A DNA stretch of 64,000 bases. Origin: Escherichia coli. GTDB lineage: Bacteria; Pseudomonadota; Gammaproteobacteria; Enterobacterales; Enterobacteriaceae. The translations under genes were made by a program, and so were the position numbers. The notes below the pieces were generated by a model. It was given only the letters and a program-made list of their open reading frames with translations, had not been told where the DNA came from and did no database searches. The stretch's first letter is position 1, and the number at the start of each line of letters is the position of its first letter. The stretch lies in NCBI RefSeq assembly GCF_050320075.1, contig NZ_CP190018.1, one strand, 5' to 3'. Shown here piece after piece: positions 21,223 through 28,829 of the stretch.

Positions 21223-21485
21223 GCGTCGTACCCCCGTTTGCGTCCGGCAATGCGCCCGGCCATCCATGCGGTGACTTCAGAGTGCAGCCAGGCCACATTT
21301 TTACCGCCAAGACTCACCTGCGGCGGAAATTCCCCTTTACGGATGAGTTCATAGATGGTCGAGCGTGACAGGCCGCACAGGTGCATCACTTCCGGCAGAC
21401 GTAAAAAACGCTCCTGCGTGATGTCCGGCAGCGGCATCAGTGGCGTCACAGGGGCGGGAGACGGGGAAGAAAAAACAGCTTGCAT
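21219..21485 (-). CDS. AlpA/Vis-family small DNA-binding regulator (excision/integration control)
   Basis: 88-aa ORF; HTH signature [48 protein letters not shown]; true start could be an internal Met. Confidence 0.75.
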
Positions 21486-21764
21486 CGGGCTACCTCGTTA
21501 ATGTCCATACAGCACCGGATAAGTCCGTCCGGCTTCGGGTAGCGCTTTATTTTGTGAATATTTTCAGCAGACGCAACAGGGGGGATTTGTTCCGGCAGTC
21601 TTACAATGGCTGTGTATTTTTTGTTCATCTCCACTTAAAGTCATTTAAAGCCACTTAAAGCAATTCGTAATTTTTATAGTGAAATACAAATCGTTTTTTC
21701 TTATTCATTCCCGGCGAATTAATAAAAACAAACAGTAATAAACAGCACAAAAAGCCCATCAACG

Positions 21765-21868
21765 GGTGAACAGTGGTGAACAGACGGTGAACAGTCATTA
21801 CTGCGATTGTTCACCCTTTAACTTACTGTATTACTTATCTTTTTTATTAAGGTGAACAGAGGTGAACA
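21765..21868. promoter_or_regulatory. cluster of six P4 type-I iterons, crr- or ori-like
   Basis: GGTGAACA at 21765, 21775, 21786, 21851 and 21861 (10-11 bp phasing) plus inverted TGTTCACC at 21808-21815; between the vis-like gene and sid. Confidence 0.65.
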
Positions 21869-22038
21869 GTAAAATATAAAAAAAACAAACAGTAAGCCGG
21901 TTTTTCCTGCGACCTTTTCCTGGCTTGCCGGTCTGAGGATGAGTCTCCTGTGTCAGGGCTGGCACATCTGCAATGCGTCGTGTTGTTGTCCGGTGTACGT
22001 CACAATTTTCTTAACCTGAAGTGACGAGGAGCCGGAAA

Positions 22039-22773
22039 ATGTCTGACAACACCATCCCTGAATATCTGCAACCCGCGCTGGCACAACTGGAAAAGGCCAG
22101 AGCCGCCCATCTTGAGAACGCCCGCCTGATGGATGAGACCGTCACGGCCATTGAACGGGCAGAACAGGAAAAAAATGCGCTGGCGCAGGCCGACGGAAAC
22201 GACGCTGACGACTGGCGCACGGCCTTTCGTGCAGCCGGTGGTGTCCTGAGCGACGAGCTGAAACAGCGCCACATTGAGCGCGTGGCACGCCGGGAGCTGG
22301 TACAGGAATATGACAATCTGGCCGTGGTGCTGAATTTTGAACGTGAACGCCTGAAAGGGGCGTGTGACAGCACGGCCACCGCCTACCGGAAGGCACATCA
22401 TCACCTGCTGAGTCTGTATGCAGAGCATGAGCTGGAACACGCCCTGAATGAAACCTGTGAGGCGCTTGTCCGGGCAATGCATCTGAGCATCCAGGTACAG
22501 GAAAATCCGCTCGCCAACACCACCGGCCATCAGGGCTACGTCGCGCCGGAAAAGGCTGTCATGCAGCAGGTGAAATCATCGCTGGAGCAGAAAATTAAAC
22601 AGATGCAAATCAGCCTCACCGGCGAGCCGGTTCTCCGGCTGACCGGACTGTCAGCGGCAACACTCCCGCACATGGATTATGAGGTGGCAGGCACACCGGC
22701 ACAGCGCAAGGTGTGGCAGGACAAAATAGACCAGCAGGGAGCAGAGCTTAAGGCCAGAGGACTGCTGTCATGA
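22039..22773 (+). CDS. sid: P4 Sid-like capsid size determination (external scaffold) protein
   Basis: 244 aa from ATG 22039 (MSDNTIPEYLQPALAQLEKARAAH...), SD GAGGAG 7 nt upstream; ORF track has a GTG start at 22021. Confidence 0.85.
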   Translation: MSDNTIPEYLQPALAQLEKARAAHLENARLMDETVTAIERAEQEKNALAQADGNDADDWRTAFRAAGGVLSDELKQRHIERVARRELVQEYDNLAVVLNFERERLKGACDSTATAYRKAHHHLLSLYAEHELEHALNETCEALVRAMHLSIQVQENPLANTTGHQGYVAPEKAVMQQVKSSLEQKIKQMQISLTGEPVLRLTGLSAATLPHMDYEVAGTPAQRKVWQDKIDQQGAELKARGLLS

Positions 22774-23270
22774 TTTACTGCCCGTCGTGTGGACATGTTG
22801 CTCACACCCGTCGCGCACATTTCATGGACGATGGCACCAAGATAATGATTGCACAGTGCCGGAATATTTATTGCTCTGCGACATTTGAAGCGAGTGAAAG
22901 CTTTTTCTCTGACAGTAAAGATTCAGGAATGGAATACATTTCAGGCAAACAGAGATACCGCGATTCACTGACGTCGGCCTCCGGCAGTATGAAACGCCCG
23001 AAAAGAATGCTTGTTACCGGATATTGTTGTCGGAGATGTAAAGGCCTTGCGCTGTCAAGAACATCGCGGCGTCTGTCTCAGGAAGTCACCGAGCGTTTTT
23101 ATGTGTGCACGGATCCGGGCTGTGGTCTGGTGTTTAAAACGCTTCAGACCATCACCCGCTTCATTGTCCGCCCGGTCACGCCGGACGAACTGGCAGAAAA
23201 CCTGCATGAAAAACAGGAACTGCCGCCAGTACGGTTAAAAACACAATCATATTCGCTGCGTCTGGAATGA
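22770..23270 (+). CDS. delta: P4 Delta-like late transcription activator (tandem Ogr-type zinc fingers)
   Basis: 166 aa; two Cys4 motifs CPSCGHVAH...CRNIYCSATFEASESF and CRRCKG...CTDPGCGLVF; start overlaps sid stop (ATGA). Confidence 0.85.
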   Translation: MIYCPSCGHVAHTRRAHFMDDGTKIMIAQCRNIYCSATFEASESFFSDSKDSGMEYISGKQRYRDSLTSASGSMKRPKRMLVTGYCCRRCKGLALSRTSRRLSQEVTERFYVCTDPGCGLVFKTLQTITRFIVRPVTPDELAENLHEKQELPPVRLKTQSYSLRLE

Positions 23271-23343
23271 GGGCTGCCGGTTAACACCGGCCGTCGCCAC
23301 ACACCGTATTTTTATTCTTCAGCATGATGAGAAAGAGATAACG

Positions 23344-23916
23344 ATGGAAAGCACAGCCTTACAGCAGGCCTTTGACACCTGTCAGAATAACAAAGCAGCA
23401 TGGCTGCAACGCAAAAATGAGCTGACTGCGGCCGAACAGGAATATCTGCGGCTTCTGTCAGGAGAAGGCAGAAACGTCAGTCACCTGGACGAATTACGCA
23501 ATATTATCGAAGTCAGAAAATGGCAGGTGAATCAGGCCGCCGGTCGTTATATTCGTTCGCATGAAGCCGTTCAGCACATCAGCATCCGCGACCGGCTGAA
23601 TGATTTTATGCAGCAGCACGGCACAGTACTGGCGGCCGCACTGGCACCGGAGCTGATGGGCTACAGTGAGCTGACGGCCATTGCCCGAAACTGTGCCATA
23701 CAGCGTGCCACAGATGCCCTGCGTGAAGCCCTTCTGTCCTGGCTTGCGAAGGGTGAAAAAATTAATTATTCCGTACAGGATAGCGACATTTTAACGACCA
23801 TCGGATTCAGGCCTGACGCGGCTTCGGTGGATGACAGCCGTGAAAAATTCACCCCTGCGCAGAACATGATTTTTTCGCGCAAAAGTGCGCAACTGGCATC
23901 ACATCAGTCTGTGTAA
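23344..23916 (+). CDS. psu: P4 Psu-like polarity suppression protein
   Basis: 190-aa ORF following delta, just upstream of cos; length and order as in P4. Confidence 0.85.
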   Translation: MESTALQQAFDTCQNNKAAWLQRKNELTAAEQEYLRLLSGEGRNVSHLDELRNIIEVRKWQVNQAAGRYIRSHEAVQHISIRDRLNDFMQQHGTVLAAALAPELMGYSELTAIARNCAIQRATDALREALLSWLAKGEKINYSVQDSDILTTIGFRPDAASVDDSREKFTPAQNMIFSRKSAQLASHQSV

Positions 23917-23952
23917 AACTCCCCGAAAATCCGCCCGTTTTTACTGAAAAAA

Positions 23953-23980
23953 GCCATGCATCGATAAGGTGCATGGCTTT
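23953..23980 (+). terminator. hairpin after psu (possible terminator)
   Basis: GCCATGCA tcgataagg TGCATGGC stem-loop followed by TTT. Confidence 0.4.
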
Positions 23981-24080
23981 GCATGCGTTTTCCTGCCTCA
24001 TTTTCTGCAAACCGTGCCATTCCCGGCGCGGTCTGAGCGTGTCAGTACAACTGCATTAAAACCGCCCCGCAAAGCGGGCG

Positions 24081-24099
24081 GGCGAGGCGGGGAAAGCAC
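24081..24099. other. cos site: 19-nt P2/P4-type cohesive-end sequence
   Basis: GGCGAGGCGGGGAAAGCAC matches the P2/186/P4 cohesive-end sequence as I recall it; lies just downstream of psu. Confidence 0.7.
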
Positions 24100-24349
24100 C
24101 GCGCGCTAAACCTGATGAATAAGGAATATTTTAAAAACATTTGTGGATATGAATATTTGGGTTGTAAATGAGTGTTTTTATCTGTTTTTATGTGCTGTGA
24201 AGCAATGTTTGAGTCGATATTTTTATAAAGCTCAATAAAAATTACATTATCATTGATAAGAATGGTTGTCGGATTAACACGTTTTTAAGCTATTTATATA
24301 TAATTAAACCTCGGCAAGGTTGCTGAGGTTTAATCGATTGGTTAATTAT

Positions 24350-27076
24350 TTAGTTGATTAGGTGTGACTCAGTTGCAGAGTGACCTTTTTTTGTCCTAAC
24401 AAACTTGATAGCAAGTGTTTTTCCTCTAATGTAATTAGACCAGTTATATTTTTCTTCACCAAGGCAACTGTCCCTATGAATTAATATTTCTTTTCCATCA
24501 GAATCTCTGGCAAAAACAAATCCTTTTCCTAATGTAAGATCTGAATATATTTCTGCTATAGAATATCCATTATTTTTCCATGTGATTTGTTCGAATTCGG
24601 CAATTGTTTTAGATGAGCTAAAAGCACTCCATTTGGGGGAGGTGAATGGGTTGTTTGGTATTTTTGTTGCTCTCATTGTTGAAATGATATTAACTACTTC
24701 TTTACTTGATATCTTAAAATCTTTAGAGAACTTTGTAATGTCGGCAAGATTGCTTTCAGCAAAATCAATTACTTTTATAATGAATTGTTGAGATAGTTTA
24801 TCAATGTTGTTTTTGATCGTGTCACAAAAAAGATTTAAAGATTTAATAGCTTCGTCAGAAAGTCGATCGCTGATGTTTTCTTTTTCAAATATAAATTCCA
24901 ATATGTCGATAACTTCAGATATGTTTTTTTCTACAGACTCAGGGTTAATGTCGAAGTTATTTTCACAAGAACGCTTTAATGCGGCGACTCTAAAGTAAGC
25001 TTGCTCTTGAGGTGAATGTGAATCTTTCCATTTTTCAGTGTATTCAAGAATGTCTGGGTATTCTTTACCATAAAGATGAACACCTAAATACTCTCGCATT
25101 ATTATAGAAGACAGTACTTCGCCTGAATGCTCAACTCTGTCGAATCCAGAATCAATCAATTCCTGAGATACTTTTTGAGCCTCTATAAAATCACCAATAT
25201 CTTTATAGATATACATCAGAGTTAAGTTGTTTAGTGGATTTTCAGACTCTATGCCTATTGCTGACTTTATACAAGAAATAGCACCTAAATTATCACCCTG
25301 CTTATGTAGTATTCTGGCATATGTTCGCATAAATAGAGGATTTTTTTGATATATTTGAGCGAGTGTTTTAAAATCCTCATAAATAACATTTAATTTATCT
25401 TTGTTAACGCTTTTGTAGCCTAAAATTTTATTTGCTCTGTTAACAGCTATTTGCAAGGAGTCAGGGCTATTATTAGGGATGAATCGATAATCAAACCGAT
25501 CTATTTCTTTATCTTGTTGGAATTTTTGTAAGTGCAATATTTCAGTTCGTTGTTTTCTTGCTTTTTCAGCAATAATGTTTCTGACGGTGTTATTTCTTGG
25601 TGATGTGATTAATAGTTCTTTGATTGATTCACTTAAAGAAAACTCTTCTTCTCCCGTATTAGATGTTTTCCGGGATACTAAAGATGTGTTCAATATTTCT
25701 TTAATCGCTTTTGCTATTGAGTCGGGATCTGAATCTAAGAAATGAGTTAAAAATGATCTTGATGATGCTCCGGTGACAAACAAGCATTCAAGAATAGATA
25801 TTGCATCGTTACTTAAAACATCTAATAGATTATTAAATGAAAATGCAGCGATATCTTTTTTGGATTTTTCTATTGAGTCAGGTAAAGCCATTCCATTATA
25901 AATGGAATCTATTGTAAGCCTTATTGCTAAGGGGTTAAAATGAGTCACTTCAGTAATTCTCGTGAGTTCTTCTGGGGTTAAGTTTATTATCCCTCGTTTA
26001 TCTGAATATGATTTGGCTAGATGGAAAGCCACACCAGATTGCAATTCCTTAAGTGAAATTGGGTAAGCTCCGTCAACCATTATTCGACTAGTGACTACCA
26101 CTTTAAAATTCGAAGGAAGAGTATACTGGAAACGAATGAACTCATCAGGACCATCTCTTAATAAAGTTTCGAGATTATCGATACATAGGAGAGTGCTTTC
26201 TATATCTTGGTCGTTTATAATTTCTGAATATAGATCATCATAGTTTTCTATCTCTTCATCAGGATTAAAAAACTCCACTATTTCTTTTTTTATTTCAGAA
26301 ATGGTGTCAATGTTTTTTAACTCAGAAATACCATCAGCAGTGAGATGATGTTTCTTTAATGTTAAATAGCAAATGTTTTTGAATTTCTCATTGGCTTTTG
26401 GTGAGATGCTCAATTCTTTTAAGAAATCTAAAATTAAAGCGGTTTTTCCTACGCCTCCAGGAGCTACAACCGCAATGAATGGAGTTCGATCGTTATTTAT
26501 TGCTGATAATAACTCTTTCTTTTCACCTTTACGGCCTATAAGGCTGGTAATGTCGTGATCAAATTTATCAGGCAGGTTGTTATTAATTTCCCAGCTAATA
26601 GTAGAAAACCATTCTTCTGGAGGTGCTTTTAATTGACCAGTAGATGCGGAATAATAAGCATCCTTCACACTTTTTAAACCAAGTACTTCTATATATGGAT
26701 GTGAGGCTATAGCTGCAGCGCAATGCCAGTAATGCTCATGGAATGGTCGGGTTGGATGACTAATTTGATTTCTTATAAAAAATAAATCAACAGCTGTACA
26801 GAACTCTTTCAGTTCTGACAGTTTATCATAGTCAGATGTACCCTTAGCTAATTGCAGGGCATAATTGAAAATTTCACCGATATAACTTGCTTGGATAAGA
26901 GTTTGCGTATTGAAAACGGGACCTCTCCCACGCTCCAGTTCTAGTTTAGAACGAGGTTCGAAATGTTCGCTTAACCTACTTTTACCTCCTGCATCCTCAC
27001 TAACAACATACGCCGCCAATGCTTTTTCTAAGGCATAAACTATCATACTAGTTTTCGTATCAAGATATTCAGACAT
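24350..27076 (-). CDS. STAND/NB-ARC-type P-loop NTPase with N-terminal Rx4H domain, helical repeats and C-terminal cold-shock-like OB-fold segment; candidate anti-phage defence cargo
   Basis: 908-aa ORF with AAGGA SD 6 nt upstream; Walker A IAVVAPGGVGKT (nt 26441-26458), Walker B TLLCIDNLE, sensor-I-like KVVVTSR, GLPL-like HFNPLAI; AT-rich; sits between cos/psu and int. Confidence 0.85.
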   Translation of the reverse strand: MSEYLDTKTSMIVYALEKALAAYVVSEDAGGKSRLSEHFEPRSKLELERGRGPVFNTQTLIQASYIGEIFNYALQLAKGTSDYDKLSELKEFCTAVDLFFIRNQISHPTRPFHEHYWHCAAAIASHPYIEVLGLKSVKDAYYSASTGQLKAPPEEWFSTISWEINNNLPDKFDHDITSLIGRKGEKKELLSAINNDRTPFIAVVAPGGVGKTALILDFLKELSISPKANEKFKNICYLTLKKHHLTADGISELKNIDTISEIKKEIVEFFNPDEEIENYDDLYSEIINDQDIESTLLCIDNLETLLRDGPDEFIRFQYTLPSNFKVVVTSRIMVDGAYPISLKELQSGVAFHLAKSYSDKRGIINLTPEELTRITEVTHFNPLAIRLTIDSIYNGMALPDSIEKSKKDIAAFSFNNLLDVLSNDAISILECLFVTGASSRSFLTHFLDSDPDSIAKAIKEILNTSLVSRKTSNTGEEEFSLSESIKELLITSPRNNTVRNIIAEKARKQRTEILHLQKFQQDKEIDRFDYRFIPNNSPDSLQIAVNRANKILGYKSVNKDKLNVIYEDFKTLAQIYQKNPLFMRTYARILHKQGDNLGAISCIKSAIGIESENPLNNLTLMYIYKDIGDFIEAQKVSQELIDSGFDRVEHSGEVLSSIIMREYLGVHLYGKEYPDILEYTEKWKDSHSPQEQAYFRVAALKRSCENNFDINPESVEKNISEVIDILEFIFEKENISDRLSDEAIKSLNLFCDTIKNNIDKLSQQFIIKVIDFAESNLADITKFSKDFKISSKEVVNIISTMRATKIPNNPFTSPKWSAFSSSKTIAEFEQITWKNNGYSIAEIYSDLTLGKGFVFARDSDGKEILIHRDSCLGEEKYNWSNYIRGKTLAIKFVRTKKGHSATESHLIN

Positions 27077-27094
27077 ATATGATCCTTGTTCAAA

Positions 27095-28282
27095 TTAAAG
27101 AGTGGTTTGCAATCCCCACCAATTCATTAACTCTATACGTTGTTCTAAATAGGTACTTCTATTGTAAGCTTTTCGAACCTCATTCCTCTCGGAATGCGCC
27201 AATGCTGCTTCAATAACATCAGGATTAAATTCTGCTTCGTTCATTGCCGTACTGGCAATTGATCTTAGTCCATGGGCCACTAACTTACCGCCATAACCTA
27301 TTCTCTTCAAGGCAGCGTTTGCCGTCTGACTGTTCATCGGCTGTTTTGGATCGTTTCTGCTCGGGAAAATATGTTCACGGTGACCACTGATAGGCTTCAT
27401 TACTTCCAAAATACCTAAAGCCTGAGGTGACAAAGGGACAATGTGTTCACGTTTAGCCTTCATTCGTTCGGCGGGAATCGTCCAGAGTTTGGCCTCGAGA
27501 TCGATCTCGACCCACCGAGCACCAGAAGCCTCAGAAGGGCGCACTAGGGTCAGGAGCTGCCACTCGATAAGACAGCGAGTCGGAACAGACAGATTCGACA
27601 TTACCAGAGAACGCATCAGCTTAGGTAATTCTTCGGGTCGTAGCGTGGGCATATTCTGCTTTTTGGGTTTCTCAAATGCCATTCCAACACCTGATGCTGG
27701 ATTTGCATCAATTAGACCAGTGTTTACGGCATAAATCATTATCTCGTTAATGCGCTGTACCAGACGACGTACCGTCTCTAGCGCGCCACGTGCTTTGATT
27801 GGTTCGAGGGTTTCAACAAGTGTTCGGGCTTTGATTTGCTGAACAGGGAGCTCACCGATGGCAGGTAATACATCTTTTTCCAGGGAACGCCAAATGTCTT
27901 TCGCGTAATCAGGGGTAACGCTTTTGCTTTTTATCTGGAACCAGTTGGTCGCAACAGTCGAAAAAATACTGTCTAGAGCTATCTGTTGTTGTTCTTCGAT
28001 AAATTCAGCTTGAACTTGTGGGTCTATACCATTAGCCAACAAAGCAAGGTAATCCGCTCTTAACCGTCGAGCATCAGCAAGTGAAAGGGCGGGGAAAGCA
28101 CCAAGCCCCATCATTGTCCGCTGTTTTGTTGCTGGACGTTGATAACGGAAACGCCACAACTTCTTACCGTTCGTTTTAACGAGCAGAAAAAGGCCATCGC
28201 CATCATGTAACGTTAGATCCTTTTCTAACGCTTTAGCGCGCAGAACTTCGGTGTTGGTCAGGGGGCGTGTTGTTCTTGCCAC
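27095..28282 (-). CDS. int: tyrosine site-specific integrase (P4/CP4-57 IntA type), ssrA-specific
   Basis: 395-aa ORF with GTG start; catalytic motifs AHGLRSIA and KAYNRSTYLE; next to the ssrA 3' end. Confidence 0.9.
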   Translation of the reverse strand: MARTTRPLTNTEVLRAKALEKDLTLHDGDGLFLLVKTNGKKLWRFRYQRPATKQRTMMGLGAFPALSLADARRLRADYLALLANGIDPQVQAEFIEEQQQIALDSIFSTVATNWFQIKSKSVTPDYAKDIWRSLEKDVLPAIGELPVQQIKARTLVETLEPIKARGALETVRRLVQRINEIMIYAVNTGLIDANPASGVGMAFEKPKKQNMPTLRPEELPKLMRSLVMSNLSVPTRCLIEWQLLTLVRPSEASGARWVEIDLEAKLWTIPAERMKAKREHIVPLSPQALGILEVMKPISGHREHIFPSRNDPKQPMNSQTANAALKRIGYGGKLVAHGLRSIASTAMNEAEFNPDVIEAALAHSERNEVRKAYNRSTYLEQRIELMNWWGLQTTL

Positions 28283-28304
28283 TGTGGCCGCTCCTTCATG
28301 AATT

Positions 28305-28352
28305 GGTATACGTGTTTAGGTATACATCCTACCGTATACCTAAACGTATACC
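28305..28352. promoter_or_regulatory. four GTATACC/GGTATAC repeats in an imperfect inverted arrangement upstream of int (candidate arm-type sites / int promoter region)
   Basis: GGTATAC at 28305 and 28319, GTATACC at 28334 and 28346. Confidence 0.45.
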
Positions 28353-28466
28353 AATAATCACTGGATTTAGCTGGATATCCTCGGACAATGGTAGACACAA
28401 AAAAGCCCGCAGAGCTTGTGCCATGCGGGCTTTCAGGATTTCTCCGGACGTATCCGGAAGAGCAAG

Positions 28467-28481
28467 TGGTGGAGCTGGCGG
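28467..28481. repeat. attL-side direct repeat (ssrA 3' terminus)
   Basis: TGGTGGAGCTGGCGG, identical to 16764-16778. Confidence 0.75.
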
Positions 28482-28829
28482 GAGTTGAACCCGCGTCCGA
28501 AATTCCTACGTCCTCGGTACTACATGCTTAGTCAGTCTTTACATTCGCTTGCCAGCTGCGGACGGACACGCCACTAACAAACTAGCCTGATTAAGTTTTA
28601 ACGCTTCAACCCCAGGCAGGGCTTCCACGCGATCTCTTTTGGGTTTGACCTCTCTTGATCCCCGTCCTAAGAGCGGAGGCTAGGGAGAGAGGGCTCTAAG
28701 CAGGTTATTAAGCTGCTAAAGCGTAGTTTTCGTCGTTTGCGACTATTTTTTGCGGCTTTTTACGAGGCCAACCGCCCCTCGGCATGCACCTTGGGTTTCG
28801 CAAATCCCGTCGAATCCAGAATCAGCCCC
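28467..28829 (-). ncRNA. ssrA: tmRNA (SsrA), 363 nt
   Basis: Reverse complement reads GGGGCTGATTCTGGATTCGACGGGATTTGCGAAACCCAAGGTGCATGCC...GGTTCAACTCCCGCCAGCTCCACCA. Confidence 0.95.

What the first reader, a model, noticed from the sequence alone, without database searches (positions are those of the whole stretch)
24350..27076. Single large STAND/NB-ARC NTPase gene in the variable psu/cos-int slot of a P4-like satellite: candidate anti-phage defence system
Seen in sequence: a 908-aa minus-strand ORF with a good SD fills the whole space between the cos site and int. It carries an ordered NB-ARC-like motif set: Walker A IAVVAPGGVGKT (aa 201-212), Walker B TLLCIDNLE (aa ~295-303), sensor-I-like KVVVTSR (aa 325-331) and GLPL-like HFNPLAI (aa 379-385), then ~450 aa of helical repeat-like sequence. 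The first ~190 aa form a separate domain. Established knowledge: P4-like satellites carry highly variable anti-phage cargo between psu and int, and NTPase-plus-effector-plus-repeat sensor proteins (Avs/NLR-like) are a known defence architecture. Inference: this is a single-gene defence system. I cannot place it in a named family without a profile search.
Basis: partly seen in the sequence, partly recalled or inferred. Interest (0 to 1): 0.9.

Follow-up and report, generated by a model that had tools for sequence, protein, structure and literature searches.

The report
HEPN–STAND–TPR candidate defence gene in P4 satellite
A phage satellite inserted next to the E. coli ssrA gene carries one large, foreign-looking gene for an NLR-like ATPase fused to a predicted RNA-cutting (HEPN) domain. 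It is very probably an untested single-gene anti-phage system of an already recognised kind.

Summary
A 908-aa ORF (24350-27076, minus strand) lies between the cos site and int of an 11.7-kb P4-like satellite integrated at ssrA.

My additions:
- The family is a fixed ~900-aa architecture: 243 clusters at 50% identity, in Enterobacterales, Vibrio, Acinetobacter and Bacteroidota.
- Homologues recur in the same P4 slot in Pantoea and Yersinia, in a P2-like prophage, beside McrBC/type I R-M and other nucleases, and on small plasmids.

No PADLOC, NCBIfam or Pfam model claims the family.

It is not new in kind. The HEPN+STAND+TPR+S1/cold-shock-like architecture was catalogued in 2013. This exact protein (WP_089620504) is listed as "hypothetical" P4-hotspot cargo in Rousset et al. 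2022. I found no experimental test.

Verdict: a well-supported, unvalidated member of the Avs/NLR-like class, of moderate interest.

The parts
24350..27076 (-). Whole gene, 908 aa: HEPN - NB-ARC-like NOD - TPR - beta-barrel. Identical to RefSeq WP_089620504.1.
26552..27076 (-). N-terminal HEPN-fold domain (aa 1-175), the predicted RNase effector
26756..26773 (-). R102-N103-Q-I-S106-H107, a HEPN Rx4H catalytic motif
   Evidence: R102, N103 and H107 are invariant and S106 is at least 90% conserved in 50 sequences
25577..26551 (-). NOD module (aa 176-500): P-loop NTPase domain, helical domain and winged helix
26441..26464 (-). Walker A, A205-PGGVGKT212
   Evidence: invariant; aligned to the NB-ARC P-loop
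26168..26191 (-). Walker B, L296-LCIDNLE303
   Evidence: C298, D300, N301, L302 and E303 are invariant;
26084..26092 (-). T329-S-R331, the sensor-I / RNBS-B-like motif
   Evidence: invariant; aligned to the 'TSR' of At5g66900
25916..25936 (-). N381-PLAIRL387, the GLPL-like motif of the helical domain
   Evidence: invariant;
24602..25576 (-). Helical/TPR region (aa 501-825), the presumed sensor and the most divergent part of the protein
   Evidence: TPR hits in the PDB profile search and in Pfam on family members. Mean pairwise identity is 31%, against 51-55% for HEPN and NOD.
24353..24601 (-). C-terminal five-stranded beta-barrel (aa 826-908), with OB / cold-shock-like topology
   Evidence: DSSP of the model. 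Only faint sequence similarity to cold-shock domains. No Pfam hit. The same position is called S1 / cold-shock-like OB in PMC3710099.
27083..27087 (-). Shine-Dalgarno AAGGA, 6 nt before the ATG and 8 nt after the int stop codon
24302..24335 (-). Stable hairpin 15 nt after the stop codon; a possible terminator, but with no T run
   Evidence: dG -16.6 kcal/mol, z -5.9. Not called by the terminator scan.
24081..24099 (+). cos core GGCGAGGCGGGGAAAGCAC of the satellite
   Evidence: The same string follows psu in the P4 clones, and appears reverse-complemented in the P2 clones, of Rousset 2022 Table S2. Conserved in the Pantoea and Yersinia loci.
27095..28282 (-). P4-type integrase, directly upstream on the same strand
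23344..23916 (+). psu, the other border of the hotspot
   Evidence: phrog_6366, E = 5.8e-99;
16764..28489 (.). Whole P4-like satellite (~11.7 kb), bounded by a 23-nt att repeat. The right copy is the 3' end of ssrA.

Best explanation
The gene encodes a single-protein, NLR-like (Avs-type) anti-phage sensor-effector. It is carried as exchangeable cargo in the psu/cos-int defence hotspot of a P4-like satellite.

Proposed mechanism (inferred):
1. In the resting state the NB-ARC-like NTPase holds the protein as an inactive monomer.
2. During infection the variable C-terminal part recognises a phage-derived ligand. That part is the TPR solenoid together with the terminal OB/cold-shock-like barrel.
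3. Nucleotide-dependent oligomerisation of the NOD brings the N-terminal HEPN domains together. The R102/H107 motifs of neighbouring protomers then form composite RNase sites, as in other HEPN nucleases.
4. Cleavage of cellular and/or phage RNA (tRNA, rRNA or mRNA) halts translation and aborts the infection.

What is shown and what is inferred:
- Shown: the domain architecture, the invariant motifs, the genomic slot, and the association with mobile elements and defence islands.
- Inferred: RNase activity, the trigger, oligomerisation and the phage-resistance phenotype.
For: Architecture
- The HEPN fold comes with an invariant R-N-x-x-S-H motif.
- The NOD is NB-ARC-like, with all four nucleotide-binding motifs invariant.
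- The nearest solved folds are NLR, Apaf-1, CED-4, SAMD9 and Avs5.
- TPR repeats are present, followed by a terminal beta-barrel.

Sensor-like divergence
- The TPR region and the barrel show 31-36% mean pairwise identity. The HEPN and NOD parts show 51-55%.

Location
- The gene sits exactly in the P4 hotspot.
- Its G+C is 0.31-0.39, against 0.51-0.63 for the satellite backbone.
- It occurs in only 7 of 5426 complete E. coli genomes, all at least 99.8% identical.

Homologue contexts
- 60% homologues occupy the same int-X-delta slot at smpB/ssrA in Pantoea and Yersinia.
- 33-35% homologues lie:
  - next to McrBC and type I HsdR in Klebsiella;
  - near a SinI R-M system in Acinetobacter;
  - inside a P2-like prophage in Vibrio fluvialis;
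  - next to Mrr_cat and a WYL protein in Vibrio cyclitrophicus;
  - next to DUF2726 and UvrD in Alcanivorax;
  - on an 8-kb Acinetobacter plasmid.
- No conserved partner gene appears in any of these contexts.

Precedent
- Rousset 2022 showed that this hotspot holds defence systems, including a TIR-STAND-TPR protein. It lists this very protein as unannotated cargo.
- 6 of 8 randomly chosen unknown P4 cargos defended against phages in a 2026 preprint.
- Anantharaman 2013 predicted HEPN+STAND+TPR+S1/CSD proteins to be conflict systems.
Against: - No phenotype is known for any member of the family.
- No PADLOC model matches beyond 44 residues around the P-loop (PDC-S27, E = 2.6e-4). There is no NCBIfam hit.
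- No Pfam HEPN model reaches significance; the best is 1 of 22 members at E = 0.013. The HEPN call therefore rests on fold and motif.
- The C-terminal barrel could not be assigned to any family by sequence.
- Three homologue contexts (Shewanella, Chitinophaga, Sphingobacterium) show no obvious defence genes.
- No promoter above chance level was found upstream, so expression is unproven.
- No homologue was found in 50,697 deposited phage genomes.
Confidence: 0.65

Rival explanations
1. It is a defence protein, but the HEPN domain is not the killing effector. Instead it binds or senses RNA together with the C-terminal barrel. Protection would then come from sequestering a phage component, or from a host partner recruited on oligomerisation.
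For: - Some Swt1-like HEPN domains are described as inactive RNA binders (PMC3710099).
- No Pfam HEPN model matches.
- The protein has two putative nucleic-acid-binding ends.
Against: - R102, N103 and H107 are invariant in every one of the 50 aligned sequences. That is the pattern of catalytically active HEPN families.
- No other effector-like domain is present.
- No conserved partner gene is found in 11 contexts.
Confidence: 0.1
2. It is an addiction or stabilisation module: a self-controlled toxin that keeps the satellite, prophage or small plasmid in the cell. On this reading it is not a phage sensor.
For: - HEPN domains are common toxins of toxin-antitoxin systems; the HepT toxin is among the fold neighbours.
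- A homologue makes up one third of an 8-kb Acinetobacter plasmid, next to a RelE/ParE pair.
- The gene always rides on mobile DNA.
Against: - No antitoxin partner or conserved adjacent small gene or RNA is found.
- A ~330-aa fast-evolving TPR sensor and a STAND switch are unnecessary for plain addiction.
- Several homologues sit in chromosomal defence islands.
Confidence: 0.08
3. It is a non-immune STAND signalling or regulatory protein, like MalT or AfsR-type regulators, that happens to lie in the satellite.
For: - Many STAND clades are not defence-associated: 391 of 589 clades in the 2026 survey.
- Some automatic annotations call homologues 'MarR family regulator'.
- Three contexts lack defence genes.
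Against: - The model shows no DNA-binding output domain; the 'MarR' label fits the winged helix of the NOD.
- The N-terminal domain is a HEPN fold with a catalytic motif.
- The gene recurs in P4 and P2 hotspots and next to restriction systems.
Confidence: 0.05
4. It is a decaying or inert passenger gene.
For: - It is rare in E. coli (7 of 5426 genomes).
- No promoter stands out.
- Truncated copies exist in databases.
Against: - The 2.7-kb frame is intact in AT-rich DNA.
- Every family-invariant residue is retained.
- Seven genomes carry it at 99.8-100% identity.
- It has a strong SD.
- Pseudogenes of defence systems are reported to be rare in P4 hotspots.
Confidence: 0.03

Closest known systems
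HEPN(Swt1/Abi2-like)+STAND ATPase+TPR+S1 proteins, and 'N-terminal HEPN + STAND + C-terminal cold-shock-like OB' proteins, catalogued by Anantharaman et al. 2013 (Biol Direct 8:15; examples Npun_F6454, MED222_16016, Desac_1927)
   Same: - The order of four domains is the same.
- The HEPN motif is described as 'mostly active'.
- One listed example is from a Vibrio, a genus rich in members of this family.
   Different: - I could not fetch those sequences, so identity of the families is likely but not shown.
- The 2013 work is purely computational. It makes no link to P4 satellites and reports no phenotype.
- The C-terminal barrel here does not reach significance against S1 or CSD models.
Avs (antiviral STAND) proteins Avs1-5 and Avs7-24 (Gao 2020/2022; Lee et al. 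2026 preprint)
   Same: - A single polypeptide with an N-terminal effector, a central STAND NTPase and a C-terminal TPR-like sensor.
- Carried on mobile elements and in defence islands.
- The sensor half evolves faster than the effector and NOD.
   Different: - No PADLOC Avs model matches.
- The effector is a HEPN domain rather than Cap4/Mrr nuclease, SIR2, TIR or PNP.
- There is an extra terminal beta-barrel.
- The N-terminal domain occurs only in this one architecture (243 clusters, nearly all ~900 aa). Avs families, by contrast, swap effectors freely.
- The trigger is unknown.
TIR-NLR (Rst_TIR-NLR) of the P4 hotspot (Rousset et al. 2022)
   Same: - The same genomic slot in P4-like satellites.
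- The same effector-STAND-TPR layout with NB-ARC similarity.
   Different: - The effector is TIR (NADase) rather than HEPN.
- It is a different protein family.
- TIR-NLR has a demonstrated phenotype; this gene was only listed as 'hypothetical'.
SAMD9/SAMD9L and the SAMD9-like bacterial Avs5/Avs6/Avs9
   Same: - The order STAND, then TPR, then a terminal OB-type barrel.
- Human SAMD9 is the best Foldseek hit in the PDB (E = 7e-9), and the Avs5 filament is also among the hits.
- SAMD9 also kills through an RNase (tRNA-Phe cleavage, PMC12680541).
   Different: - The TM-score is only 0.15.
- By sequence the NOD is closest to NB-ARC.
- There is no SIR2 or AlbA_2 domain.
- No Avs5 model hit was found in PADLOC.
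Stand-alone HEPN abortive-infection and toxin proteins (AbiF/AbiD, HepT, Csm6, RNase L)
   Same: The same fold and Rx4H motif. Activity generally requires two HEPN domains to come together.
   Different: Here activation would be controlled by a fused STAND switch. Those proteins are controlled by an antitoxin, an ncRNA or a cyclic oligonucleotide. No conserved ncRNA lies next to this gene.

Membership tests
STAND NTPases, NB-ARC/AP-ATPase-like | Walker A P-loop GxxGxGK[ST] | tested here: met
   A205-PGGVGKT212 is invariant and aligns to the NB-ARC P-loop
STAND NTPases, NB-ARC/AP-ATPase-like | Walker B, sensor-I arginine (hhhTxR) and GxP/GLPL motif in the helical domain | tested here: met
   LLCIDNLE, VTSR331 and NPLAIRL are invariant. 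They align to the corresponding motifs of At5g66900.
STAND NTPases, NB-ARC/AP-ATPase-like | Significant match to a curated STAND profile | tested here: met
   At family level, NB-ARC matches 31 of 50 members at E <= 1e-3 (best 4.6e-7). The query alone is marginal: nSTAND1 at 1.2e-3 and AAA_16 at 4e-4.
STAND NTPases, NB-ARC/AP-ATPase-like | NBD-HD-WHD fold resembling Apaf-1 and plant NLRs | tested here: met
   Foldseek probability 1.00 to the NRC2 resistosome, Apaf-1 and CED-4. A winged-helix hairpin is seen at aa 467-481 of the model.
STAND NTPases, NB-ARC/AP-ATPase-like | Conserved histidine of the WHD ('MHD' / Apaf-1 LHD) that contacts ADP | tested here: inconclusive
   There is no invariant His in aa 440-500. 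By my own motif comparison, L481-S482-x-S484 occupies that place. No structural superposition was made.
Avs (antiviral STAND) families | Match to an existing Avs/AVAST or bNACHT defence HMM | tested here: not met
   PADLOC-DB 2.0.0 gives only PDC-S27 (E = 2.6e-4 over aa 178-221) and mad8 (E = 0.012). Families named after 2023 could not be tested.
Avs (antiviral STAND) families | Tripartite layout of effector, STAND and repeat sensor in one protein | tested here: met
Avs (antiviral STAND) families | Protection against phage, and activation by a specific phage protein | not testable with these tools
   I found no experimental report. The gene is listed only as 'hypothetical' cargo. It matches none of the tested systems whose descriptions I could read. 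The list of clones in Lee et al. 2026 could not be searched.
HEPN superfamily | Rx4-6H motif with a polar residue after the R | tested here: met
   In R102-N103-Q-I-S-H107, the residues R, N and H are invariant in 50 of 50 sequences
HEPN superfamily | All-alpha HEPN fold | tested here: met
HEPN superfamily | Significant match to a Pfam HEPN family profile | tested here: not met
   There is no hit for the query. One of 22 members reaches E = 0.013 to HEPN_MAE_28990. There is no PDB sequence hit.
HEPN superfamily | Metal-independent RNase activity | not testable with these tools
   requires biochemistry
Cold-shock / S1 OB-fold domains | Five-stranded beta-barrel with a beta1-3 / short helix / beta4-5 topology | tested here: met
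   Strands at 839-843, 853-858, 863-867, 887-895 and 898-907, with a helix at 873-876. pLDDT is 78-90 over the strand-bearing part, aa 831-908.
Cold-shock / S1 OB-fold domains | Sequence-profile match to CSD or S1 | tested here: not met
   hhalign against CspA gives probability 8.8%. The best CSD in the PDB has E = 1.7. There is no Pfam hit in 20 members.
SAMD9-like Avs (Avs5/6/9) | Global structural similarity of the STAND-TPR-OB body, plus a SIR2, PNP or AlbA_2 effector | tested here: inconclusive
   SAMD9 is the top Foldseek hit (E = 7e-9) but with TM 0.15. No SIR2, PNP or AlbA_2 domain is present. There is no Avs5 HMM hit.
Cargo of the P4 psu-int defence hotspot (Rousset 2022) | Lies between psu/cos and int of a P4-like satellite, and is variable between satellites | tested here: met
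   The gene is present in only 7 of 5426 E. coli genomes. This accession is listed in Table S1A of the paper.

The most novel reading that the evidence does not exclude
The terminal OB/cold-shock-like barrel may be the sensing element, or a licensing element, that binds phage single-stranded RNA or DNA. That would make this an NLR-like receptor triggered by nucleic acid rather than by a conserved phage protein, with a HEPN RNase as output. On that reading it would be a bacterial functional analogue of the SAMD9 or RNase L logic.
Probability: 0.2. Interest if true: 0.75.

Novelty: new member of a known kind. Interest (0 to 1): 0.45.

Why it matters
If validated, this would add an RNA-targeting, HEPN-armed family to the experimentally characterised bacterial NLR-like receptors. 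Most characterised ones use DNases, NADases or ATP-degrading effectors.

It would also give a function to a protein family found in many Enterobacterales, Vibrio, Acinetobacter and Bacteroidota that current defence finders miss.

The fixed four-domain architecture, with its terminal OB-like barrel, gives a concrete test of whether some STAND sensors read nucleic acids.

For genome annotation, the gene is one more case showing that unannotated cargo in the P4 hotspot can be assigned a plausible defence role from fold and context.

Tried and rejected
- PADLOC, NCBIfam and PHROGs scans of the whole protein gave nothing usable.
- Pfam on the N-domain and C-domain alignments gave no family.
- PDB sequence searches with the N- and C-domain profiles gave nothing for N and only chance-level hits for C.
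- My initial reading of the C-terminus as a cold-shock domain could not be confirmed by sequence. I keep it only as 'OB/CSD-like topology'.
- A type III toxin-antitoxin-like arrangement with an adjacent ncRNA was suggested by the AbiF-ncRNA structure being the top PDB neighbour. I rejected it because:
  - only 18 nt lie upstream of the gene;
  - the 250-nt downstream spacer is not conserved in Pantoea or Yersinia;
  - Rfam finds nothing there.
- Membership in the SAMD9-like Avs group is left open. The Foldseek E-value is good, but the TM-score is 0.15 and by sequence the NOD is NB-ARC-like.
- I looked for this protein among the tested systems of Rousset 2022, the 2026 P4/P2 preprint, DefensePredictor, Domainator and Lee et al. 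2026. It was not found. The supplementary tables of Lee et al. are truncated in the held copy, so its absence there is not established.
- The promoter scan found no more sites than chance would give.
- There is no homologue in deposited phage genomes.
Full report
**1. Observation**

The ORF 24350..27076 on the minus strand encodes 908 aa and starts with ATG. An AAGGA Shine-Dalgarno lies 6 nt before the start codon, and the gap to the stop codon of the upstream integrase gene is only 18 nt. The gene has 31-39% G+C, whereas the surrounding element has 51-63%. An open frame of 2.7 kb in such AT-rich DNA is not a chance event. The protein has 319 database relatives, most of them full length.

In a 50-sequence alignment they are invariant or nearly so: A205-PGGxGKT212, C298-IDNLE303, T329-S-R331 and N381-PLAIRL387.

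**2. The element**

The gene sits in an 11.7-kb P4-like satellite bounded by a 23-nt repeat, at 16764-16786 and 28467-28489. The right copy is the 3' end of ssrA.

The backbone consists of the following:

| Feature | Coordinates |
|---|---|
| alpha primase | 17091-19424 |
| Sid-like | 22021-22773 |
| Delta | 22770-23270 |
| Psu | 23344-23916 |
| integrase | 27095-28282 |

A C4/CI-type antisense RNA immunity region is also present. The cos core GGCGAGGCGGGGAAAGCAC lies at 24081-24099. The same string follows psu in the published P4 clones.

The gene therefore occupies the psu/cos-int slot. About 250 nt of AT-rich spacer remain between its stop codon and cos. That spacer contains a stable hairpin (dG -16.6 kcal/mol, z -5.9). 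The spacer is not conserved in related satellites.

**3. Anatomy of the protein**

A full-length AlphaFold2 model has a mean pLDDT of 84. It shows four parts.

(a) *aa 1-175, a helical domain.* Modelled alone it has pLDDT 86.6.
- The annotated top hits are dominated by HEPN families: Swt1-like, DUF4145, Apea-like, DZIP3-like, DUF86, RiboL-PSP, AbiU2 and Abi-like.
- The family carries an invariant R102-N103-x-x-S106-H107 motif, which is the Rx4H signature of catalytically active HEPN RNases.
- No Pfam HEPN model detects it.

(b) *aa 176-500, a NOD.*
- Pfam NB-ARC matches 31 of 50 members.
- The profile of this region aligns across the P-loop, Walker B, TSR and GLPL-like motifs to the Arabidopsis NB-ARC protein At5g66900.
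- The closest solved folds are the NRC2 resistosome, Apaf-1, CED-4, SAMD9 and an Avs5 filament.

(c) *aa ~500-825, TPR-like helices*.

(d) *aa ~838-907, a five-stranded beta-barrel with an OB/cold-shock-like topology*. I could not assign it to a family by sequence:
- hhalign against CspA gives a probability of 8.8%;
- the best cold-shock domain in the PDB has E = 1.7;
- there is no Pfam hit.

**4. The family**

A profile of the N-terminal domain, searched against 1.84 billion representative proteins, finds only 243 clusters. Nearly all are 885-940 aa long. This HEPN variant is therefore tied to one fixed architecture and is not shuffled among proteins.

Members occur in E. coli, Enterobacter, Citrobacter, Klebsiella, Serratia, Pantoea, Yersinia, Vibrio, Shewanella, Acinetobacter, Alcanivorax and many Bacteroidota.

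Within the family the effector and NOD are conserved, at 51-55% mean pairwise identity. The TPR region and the barrel diverge faster, at 31-36%. This is the pattern expected of a sensor under diversifying pressure.

**5. Context of relatives**

| Organism (identity to query) | Context |
|---|---|
| Pantoea agglomerans, Yersinia canariae (60%) | Same int-X-delta slot of P4-like satellites beside smpB/ssrA |
| Vibrio fluvialis (33-35% band) | Inside a P2-like prophage, between the replication gene/ogr and the capsid genes |
| Klebsiella (35%) | Adjacent to McrBC and a type I HsdR |
| Acinetobacter | Near a SinI R-M pair |
| Acinetobacter (33%) | On an 8-kb plasmid, next to RelE/ParE |
| Vibrio cyclitrophicus | Next to an Mrr-type nuclease and a WYL protein |
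| Alcanivorax | Next to DUF2726 and UvrD-type genes |
| Shewanella, Chitinophaga, Sphingobacterium | Nothing telling |

No neighbouring gene is shared between these contexts, so the protein acts alone.

In E. coli the gene is rare. It is present in 7 of 5426 complete genomes, all at least 99.8% identical.

**6. Mechanism**

The best-supported reading is an Avs/NLR-like abortive-infection protein. A phage-derived ligand is recognised by the TPR and barrel region. This releases the NOD for nucleotide-dependent oligomerisation. The N-terminal HEPN domains then come together into composite RNase sites, and RNA cleavage stops translation.

The anatomy, the motifs and the genomic associations are shown. 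The trigger, the oligomerisation, the RNase activity and the phenotype are inferred. I put this explanation at 0.65.

Rival readings, with their evidence, are given in the Rival explanations section:
- HEPN acts as an RNA binder rather than as the effector;
- the gene is an addiction module;
- it is a non-immune STAND regulator;
- it is an inert passenger.

**7. Comparison with what is known**

Rousset et al. 2022 established the psu-int region of P4-like satellites as a defence hotspot. They validated a TIR-STAND-TPR protein there and noted STAND proteins with SIR2 or nuclease heads. Their Table S1A lists 'NZ_NLKH01000031 hypothetical WP_089620504'. That is the accession annotated on the 100%-identical gene in strain YZLc1-3. 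The gene was therefore seen but neither annotated nor tested. Their tested 'HEPN-TPR' and 'NOD-1' clones are different proteins.

A 2026 preprint found that 6 of 8 randomly chosen unknown P4 cargos defend against phages. None of the systems it names matches this one.

Anantharaman et al. [quoted passage not shown] They also mention bacterial proteins with an N-terminal HEPN, a STAND module and a C-terminal cold-shock-like OB fold. This is the architecture I reached independently. I could not verify that it is the same family.

Lee et al. 2026 define 589 STAND clades and Avs7-24. The held supplement is truncated, so I could not place this protein among them. No PADLOC 2.0.0 model matches.

Human SAMD9 is the best Foldseek hit and shares the order STAND, TPR, OB. 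The TM-score is only 0.15, however, and by sequence the NOD is NB-ARC-like. That link remains a lead.

**8. Verdict**

New here are:
- the identification of the effector as a HEPN domain with an invariant catalytic motif;
- the terminal beta-barrel;
- the size and rigidity of the family;
- the recurrent association with P4 and P2 hotspots and with defence islands.

The kind of system is known. The architecture was predicted in 2013, and the gene was catalogued in 2022. It is therefore a new, unvalidated member of a known kind, of moderate interest (0.45).

The most novel reading not excluded is that the OB-like barrel makes it a nucleic-acid-sensing NLR-like receptor (probability about 0.2).

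Noticed in passing
window 20875-21160 (-): Rfam finds a C4 antisense RNA (20875-20962), isrK (21070-21147) and the c4-a1b1 target (21108-21160). Together these form the P4-type RNA immunity region of the satellite.
   Followed up: no
window 24086-24100 and 28088-28102: A 15-nt exact copy of part of the cos core (GGCGGGGAAAGCACC) also occurs inside the integrase gene. It may be chance.
   Followed up: no
proteins P0122, P0125, P0126: ORFs of 200-250 aa consist of little more than the HEPN-like N-domain. They occur in Photobacterium, Klebsiella (35 member sequences) and Rosenbergiella. They may be truncated genes or stand-alone versions of the domain.
   Followed up: no
L015 (A. baumannii plasmid pABLAC1) 4646-7318: A full-length 33% homologue makes up a third of an 8-kb non-mobilizable plasmid, directly after a RelE/ParE toxin-antitoxin pair. 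The same gene is on five other Acinetobacter plasmids.
   Followed up: partly
L011 (Vibrio fluvialis) 5135-16547: The homologue sits in a P2-like prophage, flanked by three short Ogr/Delta-type genes, between gpA and the capsid/portal genes. This position resembles the P2 defence hotspot.
   Followed up: partly
window 25610-25636 (aa 481-489): In the winged-helix domain the conserved motif L-S-x-S-I-[RK]-[DE]-L-L lies where AP-ATPases have (M/L)HD. The nucleotide-contacting histidine appears to be replaced by serine. This is my own motif comparison, not a superposition.
   Followed up: no
window 24100-24349: The 250-nt AT-rich spacer between the gene and cos is absent or different in the Pantoea and Yersinia satellites, where the gene ends much closer to cos. 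It contains the hairpin at 24302-24335.
   Followed up: partly
model mb79d8b7a449f (whole protein): Human SAMD9 (9zjs_B) is the top Foldseek hit in the PDB (E = 7e-9, 1100 aligned columns, TM 0.15), ahead of plant NLR and Apaf-1. The shared STAND-TPR-OB order may or may not reflect common descent.
   Followed up: partly
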